44,072 bases of DNA. Origin: a virus (Duplodnaviria; Heunggongvirae; Uroviricota; Caudoviricetes). Position numbers and translations under genes: made by a program. Shown in pieces: positions 1-44,072 of the stretch. The notes beneath the pieces are model-generated. The model was not told where the DNA came from and did not search any database. It saw nothing but the letters and a program-made list of their open reading frames with translations. Location: the IMG/VR virus record IMGVR_UViG_3300045988_043987. One strand, written 5' to 3'. The first letter of the stretch is position 1. Each line of letters begins with the position of its first letter.

Positions 1-119
1 ATTTTTTTTATCTATTTTCTATAATGACTAGTTGACTATTATCTACGACCCTACTATATTTACTCCATCGACAACGAGAACGGAGTAGAGAGAAATGATG
101 ACTAAGATTAAGCATACCG
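1..119. repeat. terminal direct repeat, left copy (identical to 43954-44072)
   Basis: bases 1-119 recur exactly at the window end; true terminal repeat or circular-assembly overlap. Confidence 0.9.
32..60 (+). promoter_or_regulatory. sigma70-like promoter (TTGACT - 17 bp - TATATT) for the rightward small-gene cluster
   Basis: -35 TTGACT at 32-37, 17-bp spacer, -10 TATATT at 55-60; lies downstream of the 43934-43962 terminator in circular order. Confidence 0.6.
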
Positions 120-283: not shown

Positions 284-429
284 AAATCACAGATACCGAA
301 GCATTTGAAGACGCACAACTGATGGCACGTATTGCCGTTAGCAACCTGGGCAGCAATATCCCGTCGGACGCGTTCTGGTCCGCGGCGATGCAGGCACTTA
401 AAGCAGCTTATGCAGGAGAGAAGAAATGA
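280..429 (+). CDS. hypothetical small protein (49 aa)
   Basis: ATGA start/stop overlap with upstream ORF; below ORF-track size cutoff. Confidence 0.35.
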   Translation: MKITDTEAFEDAQLMARIAVSNLGSNIPSDAFWSAAMQALKAAYAGEKK

Positions 430-580
430 GCTAACAAAGTCCAGCAAGCCGGCCATTACGAGTAGGCCGTAAAGTTAGTCACACCCCGTTCCCGACACGC
501 GAGGAACTGATGAAACGTAACAGTTTCCCTGGGCCGGACAAGAACAAGTATCTCAATCGCATGTGGGGAGAGCGTAAAGA

Positions 581-751
581 ATGAAAAAGTTAATTGCAGA
601 CGTTGAGCTTGGCGATGTTATCCGTATTGATGATGACTACGGCGGCTACGACGTAGTGGCGAAGCGCATCGAGTGGGATTTTATGTTGCCGTTTGTCACG
701 ATTAACCGTGAAATCATGTTCGCTAAAACTGATTGGGTAGAGGTTCGATAA
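581..751 (+). CDS. hypothetical small protein (56 aa)
   Basis: ATG ORF whose stop overlaps the next start (TAATG). Confidence 0.35.
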   Translation: MKKLIADVELGDVIRIDDDYGGYDVVAKRIEWDFMLPFVTINREIMFAKTDWVEVR

Positions 752-948
752 TGACTGACCGTGAATACGAAAAGATGATGGTAGAGGCTGTTAACGGCGG
801 TGTAGACATCGGTCACGTGATGCACGTCCTGAATACTAAAATTTCGGTAGCGGAGCAAATGGTTGAGTCGCTTTACGAGACACGCCGCGAACTGATTAAC
901 CGCTTCAACCTGAACAAAGTCTTGGGTGACGGGCATGAAAGCGCCTGA
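751..948 (+). CDS. hypothetical protein (65 aa)
   Basis: ATG at 751 in frame with track ORF 733-948; GGTAGAGG upstream. Confidence 0.55.
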   Translation: MTDREYEKMMVEAVNGGVDIGHVMHVLNTKISVAEQMVESLYETRRELINRFNLNKVLGDGHESA

Positions 949-2431: not shown

Positions 2432-3692
2432 TATCACGGCGACGGAGCCACAAGGCGCATTTCTAGGTATGCATTGCAAGTTCCCGGCATTCGTGGCAGG
2501 CTTCGGCACCGGGAAGTCAGAGGTTATGTGCAACTCTGCACTACTCGACAGCATGGAAGGTGGTAGCGATTCTATCATCGCCATGTACGAGCCTACCTAT
2601 GACCTGGTGCGCCTCATCCTTGCACCGCGTATGGAAGAAAAGCTGACGGACTGGGGTATCCGATACAAATACAACAAGTCTGACAACATAATCTATACGT
2701 CATCCAGTCAATTTGGGGATTTTGTTCTGCGTACATTGGATAATCCAGCACGAATCGTAGGTTACGAGTCCTTTCGCGCAAAAATCGACGAGTTGGACAC
2801 CCTTAACATGGAACATGCTGAGCACGCGTGGAACAAAGTCATCGCCCGTAACCGCCAGTTGCCGCGGACATATAAACCTATTACGCCCAAACCGGCTAAT
2901 ACCGTTTCCGTGTTCACCACGCCGGAAGGATTCCGTTTCGTACATGACCGCTGGGTTGTTAAAAAGAATCCTGGCTACGAGATGATTCAGGCATCCACCC
3001 TGTCGAACCCGTTCCTGCCGGAAGATTATGTTCAGTCATTGCGCGATACCTACCCGGGTCAGTTGATTGACGCCTACATTAACGGCGAGTTTGTAAACCT
3101 CACGGCTGGGACGGTCTACTACGCTTACGACCGCAGGAAAAATAGTAGTCGTGAAACAATCAAGCCTGGCGAGACTCTGTATATTGGGCAGGACTTTAAC
3201 GTAGGCCACATGGCGAGCACAGTTTACGTGCAACGCGGGAAGGTGTGGCACGCTGTCGCCGAGTTGGTTGATATGTTCGATACCCCCGATGTAGTGCGGG
3301 CTATAACCGAGCGATGGAAAAGTAAGGGTCACTATATCGTTATGTACCCGGACGCCAGCGGCAAAAACCGTAAAAGCAACAACGCCAGTACCTCAGACAT
3401 CGCCCAGCTACAGCAGGCCGGTTTCGAAGTACGCGCTAAATCGACAAACCCACCGGTTAAAGACCGCGTATCTGCGATGAATAAGGCGCTTGAATCTGGT
3501 ATGGTCATGATTAACGAACAGGCTTGCCCAGTTACGGCGCGATGCCTGGAGCAGCAAGCCTACGACAAGAACGGCGAACCGGATAAATCCGGGGGCGTGG
3601 ACCACCAGAATGATGGAACCACATACCCTATCGCGTACGAAATGCCGATTCGCAAACCAGTTATTAACGTCCCGGTGACTTTCGCACTTTAA
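2421..3692 (+). CDS. terminase large subunit
   Basis: N-terminal Walker A-like GFGTGKS, C-terminal nuclease-like region; GTG start with AAGGTGG ribosome-binding site (start uncertain; first ATG at 2469). Confidence 0.8.
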   Translation: MNVNITATEPQGAFLGMHCKFPAFVAGFGTGKSEVMCNSALLDSMEGGSDSIIAMYEPTYDLVRLILAPRMEEKLTDWGIRYKYNKSDNIIYTSSSQFGDFVLRTLDNPARIVGYESFRAKIDELDTLNMEHAEHAWNKVIARNRQLPRTYKPITPKPANTVSVFTTPEGFRFVHDRWVVKKNPGYEMIQASTLSNPFLPEDYVQSLRDTYPGQLIDAYINGEFVNLTAGTVYYAYDRRKNSSRETIKPGETLYIGQDFNVGHMASTVYVQRGKVWHAVAELVDMFDTPDVVRAITERWKSKGHYIVMYPDASGKNRKSNNASTSDIAQLQQAGFEVRAKSTNPPVKDRVSAMNKALESGMVMINEQACPVTARCLEQQAYDKNGEPDKSGGVDHQNDGTTYPIAYEMPIRKPVINVPVTFAL

Positions 3693-3704
3693 GAGGATTA
3701 TTCA

Positions 3705-5186
3705 ATGTTAACTATGAACGGTCAGAATCAGGGTGTTAAGACAAAACACCTGGAATGGCTACATCACTTCGATAAATGGCAGAAGGTACGCCACGCTCTG
3801 GAAGGCGACCTCATCCGTTATCTTCGCAACGTCGGGAAGAACGAGCCGGACCCTAAATATGCAGCACAGCGCCAGGAAGAATACGAGAATGGCGCTATCT
3901 GCTACAACTTCACAAAACGTACCCTGGCGGGGATGGTCGGCAGCGTTATGCGTAAAGACCCTGAGCAAATTATCCCACCTGAAATGGAGTACCTGCTACG
4001 CAACGCGGATGGCTCAGGTGTCGGCTTGTGGCAGCACGCGCAGGACACGCTGATGGAGATTGACTCGGTGGGCCGTGGCGGTTTGCTGGTGGACGCCCCT
4101 GAGACTGCTGCTGCAACGGCGGCAGAACAGAACGCGGGGCTATTAAACCCGGTCATCGCGTTCTACACCGCGGAGAACATCATCAACTGGCGACTTACTC
4201 GCATCGGCTCAGTGAACCGCGTGACGATGGTTGTATTGCGTGAGGTATGGGAATACTCAGAACCTGGTGCAGAGTTCGAAACCAAGTTCGGTGAGCAATA
4301 CCGCGTCCTTGACCTTATTGAAGGCCGTTACCGTCAGCGCATTTACCGCTTCGATGCCGAAGGTGGTGCTCAGGATGAGGTAATCGAAATATTCCCGGAA
4401 CTCGGCGAACAGTTACGCGGCAAAATCCCCTTCACATTCATCGGGGCAAGCAACAACGATGCAACCATCGACGACGCACCTTTGCTGCCGTTGGCTGAAC
4501 TTAATATCGGACATTTCCGCAACAGCGCGGACAATGAGGAGTCCAGCTTCGTTGTAGGCCAACCTACTCTGTTCATCGCCCCGGGAGAGAACATGAGCAT
4601 GGAACAGTGGGCGGAAGCTAACCCGCACGGCGTGCGCATGGGGTCGCGTTCAGGCCATAACATCGGCTACGGCGGCAATGCGTTTCTGGTCCAGGCGGGA
4701 GAGAACAACCTTGCCAAGCAGAACATGCTGGATAAAGAGAATCAGGCAATCCAGATTGGGGCGCAGCTTATCACCCCTACGCAGCAAATCACCGCGGAAT
4801 CGGCCCGCCTGCAACGCGGCGCTGACACCTCAGTTATGGCAACAATCGCACGTAACGTAAGCATGGCGTATACCGATGCGTTGCGCTGGGTAGCGGCGAT
4901 GCTAGGGTTGCGTGAAGGCACAGAGATTGAGTTCAAACTGAACATGGAATTCTTCCTGCAACCGATGACCGCTCAGGACCGTGCACAGTGGATGGCGGAT
5001 ATTAACGCCGGTTTGCTGCCAGCTACTGCTTACTACGCGGCGTTGCGTAAGGCCGGTGTAACCGACTGGACTGACGAGGACATTCAGAACGCTATTGAGG
5101 ATGCACCTCTGCCGAATGCTACGATGGTGCAAGGAGATATTCCGGCATCGGCTAACCCGCAAGACCAACAGAACCCGCCGCAATGA
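3705..5186 (+). CDS. portal protein
   Basis: 493-aa ORF directly after TerL; size and position typical. Confidence 0.75.
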   Translation: MLTMNGQNQGVKTKHLEWLHHFDKWQKVRHALEGDLIRYLRNVGKNEPDPKYAAQRQEEYENGAICYNFTKRTLAGMVGSVMRKDPEQIIPPEMEYLLRNADGSGVGLWQHAQDTLMEIDSVGRGGLLVDAPETAAATAAEQNAGLLNPVIAFYTAENIINWRLTRIGSVNRVTMVVLREVWEYSEPGAEFETKFGEQYRVLDLIEGRYRQRIYRFDAEGGAQDEVIEIFPELGEQLRGKIPFTFIGASNNDATIDDAPLLPLAELNIGHFRNSADNEESSFVVGQPTLFIAPGENMSMEQWAEANPHGVRMGSRSGHNIGYGGNAFLVQAGENNLAKQNMLDKENQAIQIGAQLITPTQQITAESARLQRGADTSVMATIARNVSMAYTDALRWVAAMLGLREGTEIEFKLNMEFFLQPMTAQDRAQWMADINAGLLPATAYYAALRKAGVTDWTDEDIQNAIEDAPLPNATMVQGDIPASANPQDQQNPPQ

Positions 5187-26404: not shown

Positions 26405-26916
26405 CTGGTAAATTTCCTCGCAAGATACGTTATTTCTTCTTCACAAAGTTCATCAAGGTCATTTGACACAAATCCTCTGGTGAATGTTTTGCTGAACTTT
26501 AAGCCCGCTTTATCATTGTCACCGGCGCACACCCATTCATACGGCAAAAGTGACATTTGCTGCCGTAAGTCCGCTGGTATGTTCGACCCCAATGCGCTAA
26601 CTGCATTAAACCCGCAATTCATCAAAGCAACAGCTTTAAATATGCTTTCGGTAACAAATACCACCCCGCTACTCGGCAAATACTCAAGTCCCCATAAACA
26701 CGGCCTTGTTGTTCGGGTATAGTACCGCGCGTCTTTATGGTTCTTGCAGTTCTTTTCGGCGTGTGGTTTGTAGTGCTGGTACCCGCGAAGCCTACCGTCA
26801 AATCCCCACAGGTAAAACGTAGCTACTCCAGGGCCTAAGACTACACGTAAACGGTCCGCGTCAAAACCTCGTGACAGCAGATGTGCCTTAAGTAGTAACT
26901 CCTCGCTGCCCATCAT
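26401..26916 (-). CDS. Toprim-domain protein (putative)
   Basis: VTESIFKAVAL (Toprim Glu) and CAGDNDKAG (DxD) motifs. Confidence 0.5.
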   Translation of the reverse strand: MMGSEELLLKAHLLSRGFDADRLRVVLGPGVATFYLWGFDGRLRGYQHYKPHAEKNCKNHKDARYYTRTTRPCLWGLEYLPSSGVVFVTESIFKAVALMNCGFNAVSALGSNIPADLRQQMSLLPYEWVCAGDNDKAGLKFSKTFTRGFVSNDLDELCEEEITYLARKFTR

Positions 26917-28337
26917 TTCTTACCTCGTCTCTTCATGTAGTTAAGCAACTCTTCCTGCACCGATTTCTTCTCATCAGTACGCGCGGCAACAACCTCGTCA
27001 AGAGTGTCTTTGGCAACGATATGATAGAGGAACACCGGGCGCTCGTGGCCTGCCTGTTTCTGGCGGACTGGGCCTATGCGCTCGACAACCTGCAAATAGT
27101 GCTCAAGGTTCCACCCTGGCGAAATAAACGCCAGATGATGCCCGCCGTCCTGTAAATTGAGGCCGTGGCCCGCCGACGCAGGATGCACGCATAAGATTTC
27201 GATTTCGCCGCGGTTCCACGCTTCCATCTGCTTATTACCCTTAGCGCCTTTGGCGAACGCCTGCGCCTGCGGGAATCGTTTAAGGATGCGCTCCAGTTCA
27301 TGCTTGAACTGATAGGCGACTAGCAACGGTGCACCCTGCAACTCTTCCACAATGGACTCCAGTGCGTCCAGTTTCGTGTCGTGCACTTTCTCCCAGTCTT
27401 TCGTTGCTTCGCCGTCCGGCCCTGACACATACACGGCACCGGATGCAATCTGAAGGCACTTAGATGTCTTCGCCGCCGCGTTAGCCGCTTCAACTTCCCC
27501 GCTCTCCAGCTCCGCGAATAGCTTCTCCTCCATATCGATGTACGCCTGACGTGCTTTCTTCGGCAGGTCGATTTCAACCGGTACGATAATCGGCGCTTCA
27601 CATCCGAACCACTCGGCGGCGTCAATCGTGAGACTAATGTCCTTCATCTTCTGGTGAATCTCGGTATCCGCCCCCGGGCGGGCATGGTACTCGCGTGCCA
27701 TCGCCGACTTACCTTTCTGTACCGAGTTAAACCAGCGGTCTGTGAATGCCGTGTATGAAGACCCCAAGCGCTCTCCTGCGTCGATAAACCAGTTCTGGCC
27801 CCACAAGTCCTTGAGGCCGTTCGGTGATGGTGTGCCAGTCAGGTTGATAAAACGCTTAACCTTACCGAAAGCAACCTTGCTAAGAGCCTTTGCGCGCTTG
27901 CTTCCACCTGAACGGCTGCGGAACGATTTAAGCTTCGTGCTTTCATCGGCAACGATAACCGTAAAAGGCCAGTCGTCTTTGCCGTAGTAGTCAATCAGCC
28001 ACTCGATAACTTCGTAGTTTGTGCACACCACGTTAGCGTCTGACTCCAGTGCCGCGATGCGACGCCTCTCGCTACCTGTTGCATCTACGACACTCAGGCA
28101 TGGAAATCGCCATTTCTCTTGTTCTGCGGGCCATGTGCCGGATGCGACGCGCAACGGAGCGAGGATTAACACGCGGTCGTCGTCCGTAAGCTGCCCGTTG
28201 CGGAACAGTCTGTTTAACGTCCACAGTACGCTGCCAGTCTTCCCGGCACCCATGCTTGCCCATATGTTGCAGCGATGGTGCCGCAACATGAACGAGGTAA
28301 TGAGCTTCTGGTACTCGCGCCTTTGAAACTTACTCAT
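26913..28337 (-). CDS. SF2 DNA helicase (SNF2/DEAD-like)
   Basis: Walker A MGAGKTG, Walker B/DExx VIVADEST, helicase C-terminal region. Confidence 0.85.
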   Translation of the reverse strand: MSKFQRREYQKLITSFMLRHHRCNIWASMGAGKTGSVLWTLNRLFRNGQLTDDDRVLILAPLRVASGTWPAEQEKWRFPCLSVVDATGSERRRIAALESDANVVCTNYEVIEWLIDYYGKDDWPFTVIVADESTKLKSFRSRSGGSKRAKALSKVAFGKVKRFINLTGTPSPNGLKDLWGQNWFIDAGERLGSSYTAFTDRWFNSVQKGKSAMAREYHARPGADTEIHQKMKDISLTIDAAEWFGCEAPIIVPVEIDLPKKARQAYIDMEEKLFAELESGEVEAANAAAKTSKCLQIASGAVYVSGPDGEATKDWEKVHDTKLDALESIVEELQGAPLLVAYQFKHELERILKRFPQAQAFAKGAKGNKQMEAWNRGEIEILCVHPASAGHGLNLQDGGHHLAFISPGWNLEHYLQVVERIGPVRQKQAGHERPVFLYHIVAKDTLDEVVAARTDEKKSVQEELLNYMKRRGKK

Positions 28338-29254
28338 TTACAGCCCCCATGAACGCCTTTATAAATTCAGCGGCTACTTGCGGGACGATGGCATTGCCGT
28401 AACCGCGCAATCGTCCCACTCTGGCGGGTATCCCATTAGCCAGCGGGAATGTGCCGGGTTCAACTGGCCGGAACTTTCCATCCCTGCATCCGAGCCAGTC
28501 AGCATCCGACCAGAAGCTGCGATTCGGATTGCCCCCACGAGGTAGCATTGATTGTGCAGATTGTTCGGGTCTCTTTTTGTTTCCGCCTCGCTGTAGCTGC
28601 CGTGACGCGAATTCTGAACCGTCGGCGTCCCCCATGCCGCTTTCAGTCCCTGCTCTGTTGAGTAGTCCAGCCTGTCGAATGTTCTGTCCTTCCCGTCCTT
28701 GCGAATCACTGTCTCTCCGCTCCCTTTGTGATCGTTCGCTGTCGGTGTCGGCCAGTTGGTACGCACCAAAGAAGAGTCGTTCTCTTTTATGCGGAGCGCC
28801 GACGCTACAAGCTGGGAGTACGGCAAACCCGACGGCGTAGTCTTCTCCTTCCAGGTGAGTTTGTAAATCGCACATCCACGATTTTGCAATTGCTGGCGCA
28901 ACCTGTTCCCCAAAGAGGACTGGAGGGTGGCACTCGCTGATGAGGTCGAGGAAGACTGGCGCGAGGTGTCTCGGGTCGAACTGTCCGAGTTGTTTTCCTG
29001 CCGCGCTAAACGGTTGGCAAGGCGGGCTTCCCGTCCAGAGAGGCGTATCTTCCGAAACTCCCGCAAGTCTGAGCGCGAGAGGCCAGCCGCCGATGCCAGC
29101 GAAAAAAATGACACTGGGTGAACCCGTCAAGGTCTTCTGGCTTAACTTCGGTAATGCTTCTTTCATCTACAACTCCAAAAGGTATGTGACCCTGTTTTAT
29201 TAATTCACGCAGCCACGCGGCTGCACCTTTATCCCATTCATTGTAATAGTTCAT
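28330..29254 (-). CDS. DNA cytosine-5 methyltransferase, reading frame interrupted at a homopolymer
   Basis: motifs NEWDK, FFAGIGGW, PCQPFSAAGK, GEQV, GNAIVPQVA; N-terminal 82-aa ORF (29254-29006) and catalytic ORF (29166-28330) differ by one base at the A7 run 29102-29108. Confidence 0.75.
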
Positions 29255-29442
29255 TTGGCCACCAGAACTAACTCTTTACGCCCGAACGCCGTAACGTTAC
29301 CTGTTACGTCTTCGATAACCAGTTTGCCGTTCGACTCTACGAACACTGTATCAACGGCAACAGGACGACGGGTCTTAACGTTGAAAATCATGTCGCCCGG
29401 TACGATGTCACGTGCTGGTTTGCGGTCATATTCGTGTTTCAT
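29251..29442 (-). CDS. hypothetical protein (63 aa)
   Basis: AAGGA ribosome-binding site; stop overlaps methyltransferase start (ATGA). Confidence 0.55.
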   Translation of the reverse strand: MKHEYDRKPARDIVPGDMIFNVKTRRPVAVDTVFVESNGKLVIEDVTGNVTAFGRKELVLVAK

Positions 29443-43933: not shown

Positions 43934-43962
43934 CCGGCCCTGACCTAGCCGGGATTTTTTTT
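43934..43962 (+). terminator. intrinsic terminator
   Basis: CCCGGC-N9-GCCGGG followed by T8. Confidence 0.7.
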
Positions 43963-44072
43963 ATCTATTTTCTATAATGACTAGTTGACTATTATCTACG
44001 ACCCTACTATATTTACTCCATCGACAACGAGAACGGAGTAGAGAGAAATGATGACTAAGATTAAGCATACCG
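43954..44072. repeat. terminal direct repeat, right copy (identical to 1-119)
   Basis: exact 119-bp repetition of the window start. Confidence 0.9.

What the first reader, a model, noticed from the sequence alone, without database searches (positions are those of the whole stretch)
28330..29254. C5-cytosine methyltransferase gene split by a one-base frameshift in an A7/T7 homopolymer
The gene starts at 29254 (ATGA-coupled to the upstream gene) and reads MNYYNEWDKGAAAWL...DGFTQCHFF, then runs out of frame at the homopolymer 29102-29108. The catalytic remainder (FFAGIGGW, PCQPFSAAGK, GEQV, GNAIVPQVA) continues in the adjacent frame. Removing one base of the run restores a single roughly 308-aa protein reading ...QCHFFAGIGGWPLALRLAG.... 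So this is either a homopolymer sequencing error, a real inactivating or phase-variable slip, or a split gene expressed as two polypeptides. The NEWDK-type motif lies N-terminal to the FxGxGG motif, an unusual motif order.
Basis: partly seen in the sequence, partly recalled or inferred. Interest (0 to 1): 0.6.

Follow-up and report, generated by a model that had tools for sequence, protein, structure and literature searches.

The report
Frameshifted two-frame phage cytosine methyltransferase gene
A real one-base insertion in a run of T's breaks a phage DNA cytosine methyltransferase gene that encodes two proteins in two overlapping reading frames, so one mutation disrupts both proteins.

Summary
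On the minus strand a T7 run (window 29102-29108) splits a C5-cytosine methyltransferase gene (29254->28330). Removing one T restores a 307-aa protein. All 21 close relatives inspected read through in one frame with T6, except L015, which has the same +1 length.

The extra T is a real allele, not an assembly error. The exact 278-aa frameshifted ORF recurs on contigs from three separate assemblies or runs and on two haplotypes. It is the only gene-breaking frameshift in the window.

A second ORF (beta) in the +1 frame covers about 85-95% of the methyltransferase gene (alpha). It stays open in about 60 diverged loci, is under purifying selection, usually has its own ATG and Shine-Dalgarno sequence, and belongs to a family of about 9,000 clusters with no Pfam model. 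This matches the architecture of the characterised enzyme M.EcoHK31I, whose beta subunit (motif IX) is encoded inside the alpha gene in another frame and is required for activity.

In the window the insertion detaches alpha's N-terminal 51 residues (motif II-like YYNEWDK), fuses beta's start codon to alpha's catalytic body, and leaves beta's body without an ATG. It is most likely a recent loss-of-function slip at a mutational hotspot.

The parts
29102..29254 (-). Alpha gene, N-terminal 51 codons (MNYYNEWDK...QCHFF). It carries the motif II-like YYNEWDK element (29228-29248). The frameshift detaches it from the rest of alpha.
   Evidence: One search aligns alpha 3-11 to M.HhaI motif II (37-45). 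The segment is highly conserved across 58 genes.
29102..29108 (-). T7 homopolymer (A7 on the plus strand), one base longer than the T6 of relatives. This is the frameshift site. It lies in codons 49-51 of alpha and codons 20-22 of beta.
   Evidence: It is the only internal homopolymer of 7 or more bases in the window.
29006..29101 (-). Out-of-frame tail (RWHRRLAS...PTV, then stop) read by ribosomes that start at the alpha ATG in this T7 genome.
28330..29101 (-). Alpha gene body with these motifs: I FFAGIGGW (29083-29106), IV PPCQPFS (29005-29025), VI FGEQV (28900-28914), VIII APHKRERLFF (28768-28797), a variable low-complexity linker (28516-28767), FWSDADW (28495-28515), and X GYGNAIVPQVA (28372-28404). 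The stop codon TAA is at 28330-28332.
   Evidence: One search shows alignment to M.HhaI residues 2-32 and 75-168 (E 1e-13).
29164..29176 (-). Beta start codon (ATG, 29164-29166) and its Shine-Dalgarno-like GGAG (29173-29176, 6-nt spacer). In this genome this start is in frame with the alpha body, giving the 278-aa fused ORF 29166..28330.
   Evidence: In the T6 relatives this ATG opens the beta ORF MKEALPKL....
28374..29101 (-). Beta gene body in the +1 frame relative to alpha. Conserved blocks: hairpin AIYKLTWKEKTTPSGLPYSQLVASA (28797-28871), WPTPTANDHKGSG (28716-28754), a second W.TP repeat (28617-28634), and the motif IX-like [21 protein letters not shown] (28407-28469). The stop codon TAG is at 28374-28376. 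Here it is cut off from its ATG; the only in-frame start left is a GTG at 29114.
   Evidence: (phrog_1008, E 7e-49).
29251..29442 (-). Upstream 63-aa ORF whose stop codon overlaps the alpha ATG (ATGA), indicating translational coupling.
   Evidence: The same gene order is seen in relatives.
26913..28337 (-). Downstream SNF2-type helicase gene. Its ATG overlaps the end of alpha by 8 nt.
   Evidence: PF00176 is recorded for the same gene on the identical contig.

Best explanation
The locus is a dual-coding C5-cytosine DNA methyltransferase gene of a Kagunavirus (K1G-like phage).

Frame 0 encodes alpha. Alpha carries the catalytic and AdoMet-binding large domain: a motif II-like element, then motifs I, IV, VI and VIII, then a poorly conserved linker, then motif X.

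The +1 frame of the same DNA encodes beta. Beta has a conserved hairpin, W-P-T-P repeats and a motif IX-like tail. By analogy with M.EcoHK31I, I infer that beta is a separately translated subunit that supplies the small-domain or motif IX function, and that alpha needs it for activity.

In this genome a real one-base insertion (T6 to T7) lies inside both genes. It has three effects:
1. It severs alpha's first 51 residues from the catalytic body.
2. It puts beta's ATG and Shine-Dalgarno sequence in frame with alpha's body, producing a 278-aa chimera.
3. It leaves beta's body without its start codon.

The most likely outcome is loss, or near loss, of methyltransferase activity. The mutation is recent and arose by slippage at the only homopolymer in the gene.

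Shown: the sequence facts, the reality of the allele, and conservation of and selection on beta. Inferred: beta's role as a subunit, and the loss of activity.
For: Frameshift relative to orthologs.

Real allele:
- The exact 278-aa ORF is in public collections on 5-7 contigs.
- T7 was verified in ERZ28646732, SRR4305298 and SRR4305073.
- Two haplotypes, differing at window position 27118, both carry T7.
- It is the only gene-breaking frame switch in the window when compared with phage fTaEco01.
- A 119-bp terminal overlap suggests a short-read de Bruijn assembly.

Recent event: the window is identical to the T6 locus L006 over about 370 nt downstream of the run, apart from the inserted T.

Beta is a real gene:
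- The +1 frame is open for 85-95% of the gene in about 60 loci, down to 40% protein identity, while the +2 frame stays open for only 40-90 codons in nearly all of them.
- In codon-permutation tests on 14 genes, 0-13 of 2000 permutations reach the observed open length.
- The most variable codon position switches to the third position of the +1 frame in the alpha linker.
- In that linker, changes that are beta-synonymous but alpha-nonsynonymous (rate 32.5) outnumber the reverse class (19.7). In the alpha-only flanks the reverse class dominates at 22-34 against 0-3.6.
- An ATG with an SD-like sequence occurs at several non-homologous positions in different lineages.
- The family has 8963 clusters at 50% identity. 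A few members are fused in frame to other domains, and both frames stay open across inserted endonuclease-like domains.

Precedent: M.EcoHK31I beta is encoded entirely within the alpha gene in another frame. Alpha carries motifs I-VIII and X, beta carries motif IX, and both are required (PMC2836561 and PMC3404938).
Against: - No biochemical, proteomic or ribosome-profiling evidence for beta in any phage was found.
- The motif IX assignment for beta is by pattern only. Pfam at E up to 10 on 29 beta proteins found no PF00145 match, and PDB sequence searches with the beta tail or a beta-tail plus motif X chimera found no C5 methyltransferase.
- Both AlphaFold models were of low confidence (mean pLDDT 49.7 and 40.0), so there is no structural support.
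- Sequence homology to M.EcoHK31I itself could not be tested.
- Loss of activity is inferred. Low-level slippage on U7 could restore some of both products, and the chimeric 278-aa protein might keep partial function.
- The three runs could come from related samples of one study.
Confidence: 0.68

Rival explanations
1. Homopolymer sequencing or assembly error. The true genome has T6 and an intact alpha/beta pair.
For: Every downstream codon of alpha and beta is intact. The window is identical to the T6 locus L006 around the site except for the inserted T. Homopolymers are the classic site of indel errors. No T7 match was found in IMG/VR or the JGI metagenome contigs.
Against: The identical frameshifted ORF occurs in three separately assembled data sets and on two haplotypes. 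There is no other frameshifted gene in the window, although it holds ten 6- to 8-base runs besides this one. The 119-bp end overlap points to short-read data, where indel errors at 7-mers are uncommon (this step is an inference).
Confidence: 0.06
2. Phase-variable switch. The T run toggles between T6 and T7 by slipped-strand mispairing and turns both subunits on or off at once. This could help the phage escape m5C-dependent restriction such as McrBC while keeping the gene recoverable.
For: A second lineage (L015) has the same +1 length at the same run, on a different local haplotype. In both lineages the alpha and beta bodies are undamaged. The run sits where one indel hits both genes. McrBC and McrA restriction of m5C-modified DNA is established knowledge and gives a plausible selective trade-off.
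Against: T6 is short for a contingency tract. The tract is not conserved: distant relatives have CAC TTC TTC at this position. Only 2 of about 22 Kagunavirus-type sequences are shifted. No within-population length heterogeneity could be examined.
Confidence: 0.15
3. The rearranged arrangement is functional. The 82-aa N-fragment, the 278-aa chimera (beta start fused to alpha body) and a beta made from a non-ATG start or by slippage would assemble into an active enzyme, much as split C5 methyltransferases complement each other.
For: Fragment complementation is well documented for C5 methyltransferases (PMC3404938). L015 differs from the window at the run by a C-to-T change that is synonymous in the fused frame (TTC to TTT). 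The T7 phage persists in several samples.
Against: The break falls at the start of motif I and separates the motif II-like element from the fold. Beta has no ATG before residue 212 of its remaining frame. None of the 386 related proteins retrieved by then has this fusion. A single synonymous change is not evidence of selection.
Confidence: 0.07
4. The +1 ORF is a non-coding by-product of alpha's codon composition, and the locus is an ordinary single-chain methyltransferase with one frameshift.
For: No Pfam, NCBIfam or PADLOC model matches beta. The AlphaFold model of beta is mostly low confidence. PGAP does not annotate beta in E. coli prophages.
Against: Openness is significant within each gene tested and repeats across about 60 diverged genes despite many indels. 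Beta-synonymous changes are in excess in the alpha linker. Beta has conserved blocks where alpha is not conserved. ATG and SD-like sequences recur. In-frame fusions exist and both frames stay open across insertions. M.EcoHK31I is a biochemical precedent.
Confidence: 0.04

Closest known systems
M.EcoHK31I (recognises YGGCCR), a heterodimeric alpha/beta C5-cytosine methyltransferase
   Same: The beta polypeptide is encoded entirely inside the alpha gene in a different reading frame. Alpha carries motifs I-VIII and X, beta carries motif IX, and both are needed for activity (PMC2836561, PMC3404938). Here alpha has motifs I, IV, VI, VIII and X but no motif IX, and a nested +1 ORF ends in a motif IX-like L-N-P-x5-L-M-G-Y-P. 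From memory, the published sizes (alpha 309 aa, beta 176 aa) are close to this alpha (307 aa) and to the conserved part of this beta (about 171 aa).
   Different: Here the beta ORF spans 85-95% of alpha, not just a part of it. Beta also holds most of the conserved sequence between motifs VIII and X (hairpin and WPTP repeats), while alpha's variable region is a weakly constrained linker, so the target-recognition function may sit in beta rather than alpha. M.EcoHK31I belongs to a restriction-modification system, whereas this is a phage gene lying between replication genes. In this window both genes are also disrupted by the insertion.
M.AquI, a two-subunit C5 methyltransferase
   Same: A natural C5 methyltransferase made of two polypeptides that are split within the variable region (PMC3404938).
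   Different: In M.AquI the subunits are consecutive: alpha carries motifs I-VIII and beta carries IX-X. The second subunit is not nested in another frame of the first.
Monomeric C5 methyltransferases such as M.HhaI and M.HaeIII (PF00145)
   Same: The catalytic motifs align: alpha 35-65 with M.HhaI 2-32, and alpha 73-162 with M.HhaI 75-168, at E 1e-13. The PF00145 score is above the gathering threshold.
   Different: The motif II-like element lies N-terminal to motif I, and only about 20 residues separate motifs I and IV. There is no recognisable target-recognition domain or motif IX in the same chain. The Pfam match covers only profile positions 64-165 of 324.
Kagunavirus annotations 'putative C-specific methylase' and 'putative Mte8-like protein' (K1G ORF31 and ORF30; fTaEco01 TE1_031 and TE1_032); PHROGs phrog_363 and phrog_1008
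   Same: These are the same two overlapping ORFs. They are already deposited as separate CDSs in several phage records and clustered as two PHROG families, both labelled DNA methyltransferase.
   Different: Those records are intact (T6). Annotation is inconsistent: Golestan and ZCEC5 list only alpha, and EcoPhCCP1 lists only beta. No record or paper that I could search links the pair to the M.EcoHK31I architecture.
Phase-variable methyltransferases (phasevarions) of bacterial pathogens
   Same: A simple-sequence tract inside a methyltransferase ORF whose length change switches the gene off.
   Different: This tract is only 6-7 bases long, is not conserved in the family, and no switching has been shown.

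Membership tests
C5-cytosine DNA methyltransferase (PF00145) | Score above the Pfam gathering threshold | tested here: met
   59.4 bits (278-aa ORF) and 61 bits (repaired 307-aa protein) against a cut-off of 22.
C5-cytosine DNA methyltransferase (PF00145) | Motif I (FxGxGG), motif IV (PCQ with the catalytic Cys), motif VI (ENV-like) and motif VIII (QxRxR-like) in order | tested here: met
   FFAGIGGW, PPCQPFS, FGEQV and HKRERLFF are present. They align to M.HhaI FAGLGG, FPCQAFS, MENV and QKRERIYM.
C5-cytosine DNA methyltransferase (PF00145) | Motif X (GNxV...) at the C-terminus | tested here: inconclusive
   GYGNAIVPQVA is invariant in the family, but it lies outside every HMM alignment obtained. 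The assignment is by pattern only.
C5-cytosine DNA methyltransferase (PF00145) | Target-recognition domain and motif IX in the same polypeptide, between motifs VIII and X | tested here: not met
   Alpha residues 166-245 are low-complexity and poorly conserved. The Pfam match stops at residue 169.
C5-cytosine DNA methyltransferase (PF00145) | Canonical order with motif I before motif II | tested here: not met
   YYNEWDKGA (alpha 3-11) matches M.HhaI motif II (37-45) but lies upstream of motif I at alpha 50-57.
C5-cytosine DNA methyltransferase (PF00145) | Transfers a methyl group to cytosine C5 in DNA | not testable with these tools
   Needs bisulfite or EM-seq or nanopore sequencing of virion DNA, or expression in E. 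coli.
M.EcoHK31I-type nested alpha/beta C5 methyltransferase | Second ORF lying entirely within the alpha gene, on the same strand, in a different frame | tested here: met
   The +1 ORF runs 29166 (ATG in relatives) or 29114 to 28374, inside alpha 29254-28330. It is conserved in about 60 loci.
M.EcoHK31I-type nested alpha/beta C5 methyltransferase | Alpha carries motifs I-VIII and X but lacks motif IX | tested here: met
   Motif X is assigned by pattern.
M.EcoHK31I-type nested alpha/beta C5 methyltransferase | Beta carries motif IX | tested here: inconclusive
   The beta tail [21 protein letters not shown] is invariant or nearly so. It resembles M.HhaI motif IX, recalled from memory as LHPRECARVMGYPDSY. 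Pfam at E up to 10 on 29 beta proteins, and PDB searches with the tail or a IX+X chimera, gave no C5 methyltransferase hit.
M.EcoHK31I-type nested alpha/beta C5 methyltransferase | Beta is an independently translated, selected protein | tested here: met
   ORF-length tests, codon-position switch, excess of beta-synonymous changes in the alpha linker, own ATG with SD-like sequence in most lineages, and a family of 8963 clusters. This is sequence evidence only. In this window the ATG is out of frame with the beta body.
M.EcoHK31I-type nested alpha/beta C5 methyltransferase | Both polypeptides are required for methylation | not testable with these tools
   Needs co-expression and knock-out assays like those in PMC2836561.
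M.EcoHK31I-type nested alpha/beta C5 methyltransferase | Sequence homology to M.EcoHK31I alpha and beta | not tested
   The primary paper is not held and its follow-up has no supplement held. No source name among the listed hits mentions EcoHK31I or EaeI.
Phase-variable (simple-sequence-repeat) methyltransferase | Repeat tract in the ORF with length polymorphism among close strains | tested here: inconclusive
   T6 in 20 close relatives, T7 in the window's lineage, and T8 (equal to the T7 length plus a C-to-T change) in L015. Within-population variation cannot be seen without reads.
Phase-variable (simple-sequence-repeat) methyltransferase | Tract conserved or maintained in the family | tested here: not met
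   Distant family members have CAC TTC TTC GCC at this site.
Programmed ribosomal frameshift or transcriptional slippage gene | Orthologs also require the shift at a conserved slippery site | tested here: not met
   Orthologs are in frame across the site.

The most novel reading that the evidence does not exclude
The nested +1 gene (beta) would be the missing small domain (target recognition plus motif IX) of a very large, motif-permuted family of phage and prophage C5 methyltransferases. That would make it one of the largest families of long same-strand overlapping genes in prokaryotic viruses. The T run in Kagunavirus would act as a reversible switch that turns both subunits off together, letting the phage alternate between protection from type II restriction and escape from m5C-dependent restriction.
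Probability: 0.12. Interest if true: 0.72.

Novelty: new member of a known kind. Interest (0 to 1): 0.5.

Why it matters
The frameshift itself is an ordinary event: a natural knock-out of an accessory phage gene. The gene it hits is not ordinary.

Long same-strand overlapping genes are rare and often disputed in bacteria and phages. Here the second frame covers about 260 codons in the window's relatives (175 to over 420 across the family). It is conserved over deep divergence, shows a measurable selection signature, belongs to about 9,000 sequence clusters, and has a biochemically characterised precedent in M.EcoHK31I.

There are three practical consequences:
1. **Annotation.** Records list alpha only, beta only, or both, and any indel yields a long chimeric ORF that gene callers report as a methyltransferase.
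2. **Function prediction.** Alpha alone may be inactive, so predicting phage methylation from alpha alone may be wrong.
3. **Evolution.** A single indel can disable or swap the N-termini of two proteins at once.

The T7 phage and its T6 relatives form a natural isogenic-like pair for testing what this methyltransferase does for the phage.

Tried and rejected
- **AlphaFold2 of beta** (alignment A1): mean pLDDT 49.7. Only residues 61-110 (a helix plus a beta hairpin) were confident.
- **AlphaFold2 of intact alpha** (alignment A3): mean pLDDT 40. Only shallow alignments of close relatives could be submitted. No fold search was run on either model, because matches to low-confidence models are meaningless.
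- **Sequence tests for motif IX in beta.** Pfam at E up to 10 on 29 diverse beta proteins, a profile of beta against PDB, and the beta tail alone or a beta-tail plus alpha motif X chimera against PDB all gave no C5 methyltransferase hit.
- **Looking for a single-chain (un-nested) relative.** Only 5 of the top 150 beta representatives have catalytic motifs in frame. All five are alpha-to-beta frameshift chimeras, with junctions at five different positions. L074 is a similar mid-gene indel. L083 is still nested.
- **Programmed frameshifting between alpha and beta.** Rejected, because both frames stay open over the whole gene and beta has its own start codon in most lineages.
- **Naming the family as M.EcoHK31I.** The primary paper is not held, its follow-up has no supplement held, and no informative source names appeared. 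A 176-aa hit (P0405) carries no name.
- **NCBIfam and PADLOC.** Nothing for beta.
- **Promoter and terminator scan of the locus.** At background level.
- **Literature searches** for 'Mte8', Kagunavirus methyltransferases, and overlapping methyltransferase genes in phages. Nothing describes the nested pair in phages.
- **T7 pattern scans** of IMG/VR and JGI contigs found nothing, yet the exact look-up shows the allele exists elsewhere. Those two collections evidently do not hold the source contig.
Full report
**1. What is in the sequence**

The window is a Kagunavirus (a K1G-like phage of Guernseyvirinae). The best GenBank match at this locus is Escherichia phage EcoPhCCP1 at 95.8%. Complete relatives are about 90% identical over 71-77% of the 25-kb stretch compared.

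The methyltransferase gene lies on the minus strand, between a small ORF coupled to it by ATGA and an SNF2-type helicase gene. The minus strand reads CAG TGT CAT TTT TTT CGC TGG. The run is therefore T7 on the minus strand, or A7 on the plus strand at 29102-29108.

- The ORF starting at 29254 reads MNYYNEWDK...QCHFF, then leaves the frame and stops after 82 codons.
- The ORF 29166..28330 (278 aa) holds FFAGIGGW, PPCQPFS, GEQV, HKRERLFF and GYGNAIVPQVA.
- Deleting one T gives a 307-aa protein. It matches phrog_363 over its whole length (E 1.5e-86) and PF00145 at 61 bits against a cut-off of 22.

**2. Comparison with orthologs**

Four GenBank relatives (EcoPhCCP1, K1G, ZCEC5, Golestan) read ...QCHFFAGIGGW... 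in one frame with T6. Sixteen of the 17 Kagunavirus-like IMG/VR loci do the same. More distant family members have CAC TTC TTC at this site, so they have no homopolymer.

In the homology search, 119 of the top 120 alpha clusters carry the N-terminal NEWD element and motif I in one chain.

One locus, L015, has T8-GCTGG. That has the same +1 length as the window plus a C-to-T change, and it gives the same ORF layout.

**3. Real allele or error**

- An exact look-up finds the window's 278-aa frameshifted ORF in public collections (P0387, nr DAJ10490.1) on several contigs.
- I verified T7 in an ENA assembly of SAMN05826622 (44,008-bp scaffold) and in Logan assemblies of SRR4305298 and SRR4305073.
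- The ENA and SRR4305073 contigs share one SNP relative to the window (position 27118, in the helicase gene). T7 therefore sits on two haplotypes.
- A scan of the whole window against the ORFs of phage fTaEco01 finds no other gene-breaking frame switch. This run is the only internal homopolymer of 7 or more bases.
- The first and last 119 bases of the window are identical. That is the overlap a k=119 de Bruijn assembler leaves on a circular contig, which suggests short-read data (inference).

I conclude that the insertion is a real allele. It is also recent. Around the site the window is identical to the T6 locus L006 for about 370 nt apart from the extra T, whereas L015 differs at 11 positions over the same stretch. 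The L015 event is therefore most simply independent, and the run looks like a slippage hotspot.

**4.

The 28374..29114 ORF reads ...AIYKLTWKEKTTPSGLPYSQLVASA...WPTPTANDHKGSG...[31 protein letters not shown]. In T6 relatives this frame starts at the ATG that corresponds to window 29166 (MKEALPKL...), preceded by GGAG with a 6-nt spacer.

Existing annotation is inconsistent:
- K1G and fTaEco01 annotate it as 'putative Mte8-like protein' alongside the methylase.
- In EcoPhCCP1 it is the only CDS called DNA methyltransferase.
- PHROGs holds it as phrog_1008 (E 7e-49).

The evidence that it is a real gene is as follows.

- **Openness.** Across about 60 loci, down to 40% alpha identity, the +1 frame is open for 85-95% of the gene (for example 421 of 447, 386 of 410 and 361 of 391 codons). 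The +2 frame stays open for only 40-90 codons in nearly all of them.
- **Permutation tests.** In 14 genes tested, 0-13 of 2000 codon permutations reach the observed length.
- **Codon-position switch.** The most variable position is alpha's third position in the N-terminal part and after the +1 stop. It becomes alpha's first position (the third position of the +1 frame) in codons 121-150, 161-250 and 261-280.
- **Substitution classes.** In the alpha-only flanks, alpha-synonymous changes run at 22-34 against 0-3.6 for alpha-nonsynonymous changes that would be +1-synonymous. In the alpha linker (codons 166-245), beta-synonymous/alpha-nonsynonymous changes are the most frequent class (32.5, against 19.7 and 16.3). 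Coding by alpha alone cannot produce that pattern.
- **Conservation.** Alpha is conserved at residues 1-165 and 246-300 and variable between them. Beta is conserved in its hairpin block, its W-P-T-P repeats (one to five or more copies with variable spacers) and its tail.
- **Start signals.** Most lineages have an ATG in the +1 frame at alpha codons 20-40. These sit at several non-homologous positions and often follow SD-like strings. One example is AGGAG, built from an AGG-AGC Arg-Ser codon pair.
- **Family size.** The structured 171-aa part of beta has 8963 cluster representatives at E <= 1e-3 among 1.84 billion proteins.
- **Fusions and insertions.** Of the top 150 representatives, 145 have no catalytic motif in frame. 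A few are fused in frame to other domains. In L083 and in L024/L025, an endonuclease-like domain inserted in the beta frame is crossed by an alpha frame that stays open.

**5. What it most likely is**

M.EcoHK31I is a characterised C5 methyltransferase with exactly this gene architecture. [quoted passage not shown] Removing beta's start codons abolishes methylation, and supplying beta in trans restores it (PMC2836561; PMC3404938).

The phage pair fits that description.
- Alpha aligns to M.HhaI over motif I and motifs IV-VIII (E 1e-13) and ends in a motif X-like GNAIVP. It has no recognisable target-recognition domain or motif IX.
- Beta ends in L-N-P-x5-L-M-G-Y-P, which resembles motif IX.

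I therefore infer that alpha and beta form a two-subunit enzyme, with beta supplying the motif IX or small-domain function. In this family beta may also supply target recognition, because the sequence conserved between motifs VIII and X is in the beta frame.

This step is an inference. Motif IX could not be confirmed by HMM or PDB searches. Both AlphaFold models were too poor to use. Homology to M.EcoHK31I itself could not be tested.

YYNEWDKGA at alpha residues 3-11 matches M.HhaI motif II, YSNEWDKYA, at residues 37-45. That element lies after motif I in M.HhaI but before it here. Only about 20 residues separate motifs I and IV in alpha.

**6. Consequence of the insertion**

The run lies in codons 49-51 of alpha and codons 20-22 of beta, so one extra T shifts both genes.
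- Ribosomes starting at alpha's ATG make 51 native residues, including the motif II-like element, followed by 31 out-of-frame residues.
- Ribosomes starting at beta's ATG now read alpha's body, giving the 278-aa chimera MKEALPKL...SVIFFAGIGGW....
- Beta's body has no ATG before its residue 212; only a GTG at 29114 remains.

The likely result is loss or near loss of activity. Restoring either product would need the same +1 slip, or loss of one U from the U7 tract in the mRNA, and that is expected to be rare.

A phage methyltransferase is an accessory gene, so such a knock-out is viable. Other damaged copies exist in the family:
- ZCEC5 alpha has a stop codon in its C-terminal helix.
- L074 has a mid-gene indel, and L049 beta has an in-frame stop.
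- Six frameshift chimeras turned up among database proteins.

Because E. coli McrBC and McrA restrict m5C-containing DNA (established knowledge), loss of the methyltransferase could even be favoured on some hosts. That possibility keeps a phase-variation reading open, at low probability.

**7. Novelty and verdict**

The frameshift is an ordinary natural mutation. The nested two-frame methyltransferase gene is a known kind (M.EcoHK31I). The two phage ORFs are already deposited in some records, but without that interpretation.

What may be under-appreciated is the scale. The arrangement is conserved across thousands of phage and prophage clusters, beta has no Pfam, NCBIfam or PADLOC model, and annotation is inconsistent. 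I found no paper in the searchable library that describes this for phages. That library is incomplete, so I do not claim the arrangement is unknown.

I file the finding as a new member of a known kind, with moderate interest.

Noticed in passing
window 1-119 and 43954-44072: There is an exact 119-bp direct repeat at the two ends of the window. This is probably the overlap of a circular contig from a k=119 de Bruijn assembly, which would make the genome about 43,953 bp. T8 runs at 2-9 and 43955-43962 are part of this repeat.
   Followed up: partly
L024 and L025 (IMG/VR), about locus 1400-2050: An HNH-endonuclease-like ORF (CxxC...HH...N...CxxCH) sits just after the beta stop, inside the alpha gene. 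The alpha frame stays open through the roughly 170-codon insertion, giving a 481-aa alpha. I did not determine whether this is an intron, an intein-like element or a tolerated insertion.
   Followed up: no
L083 (ENA ERZ27314313 k141_860601), locus 2501-3832: A beta-family protein (P0298) carries an N-terminal cysteine-rich endonuclease-like domain, encoded in the beta frame between alpha motifs VI and VIII. The alpha frame again stays open across the roughly 190-codon insertion.
   Followed up: partly
P0259 (497 aa, from the representative search): This protein is a beta fused in frame to a C-terminal domain with an NPPY motif (WCNPPYS). The domain looks like an N6-adenine methyltransferase, which would link beta to a second kind of methyltransferase.
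   Followed up: no
L001 (EcoPhCCP1, PQ384582.1) 635-1426; L003 (ZCEC5); L004 (Golestan): Annotation of the locus is inconsistent. EcoPhCCP1 labels only the +1-frame beta ORF as 'DNA methyltransferase' and omits alpha. Golestan and ZCEC5 list only alpha. K1G and fTaEco01 list both. ZCEC5 alpha is cut short by a stop codon in its C-terminal helix (...PQVAA*FIKAF).
   Followed up: partly
P0079, P0253, P0247, P0252, P0271, P0096 (database proteins); L074: These are alpha-to-beta or beta-to-alpha chimeric ORFs with junctions at different positions. Because both frames are open, any indel in this gene yields a long chimera that gene callers report as a normal protein.
   Followed up: partly
window 29228-29248 (alpha residues 3-9); PADLOC model PDLC00026: The N-terminal motif II-like element is colinear with the PADLOC DruM2 (Druantia cytosine methylase) model: alpha 6-180 aligns to profile positions 33-182. 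The permuted motif order may therefore be shared with some defence-system methylases.
   Followed up: no
L080 (E. coli Ec1117 prophage) 765-2532: In this prophage, PGAP marks the homologous cytosine methyltransferase as two partial pseudogene pieces and marks the adjacent MT-A70 methyltransferase as frameshifted. This may be another case of decay, or a mis-call caused by the two-frame gene.
   Followed up: no
window 401-918, minus strand: An antisense ORF of phage fTaEco01 matches the window in two different frames, with a 168-nt gap between the pieces. It lies opposite annotated small genes and is probably a non-genic shadow ORF with an indel difference between the two phages.
   Followed up: no
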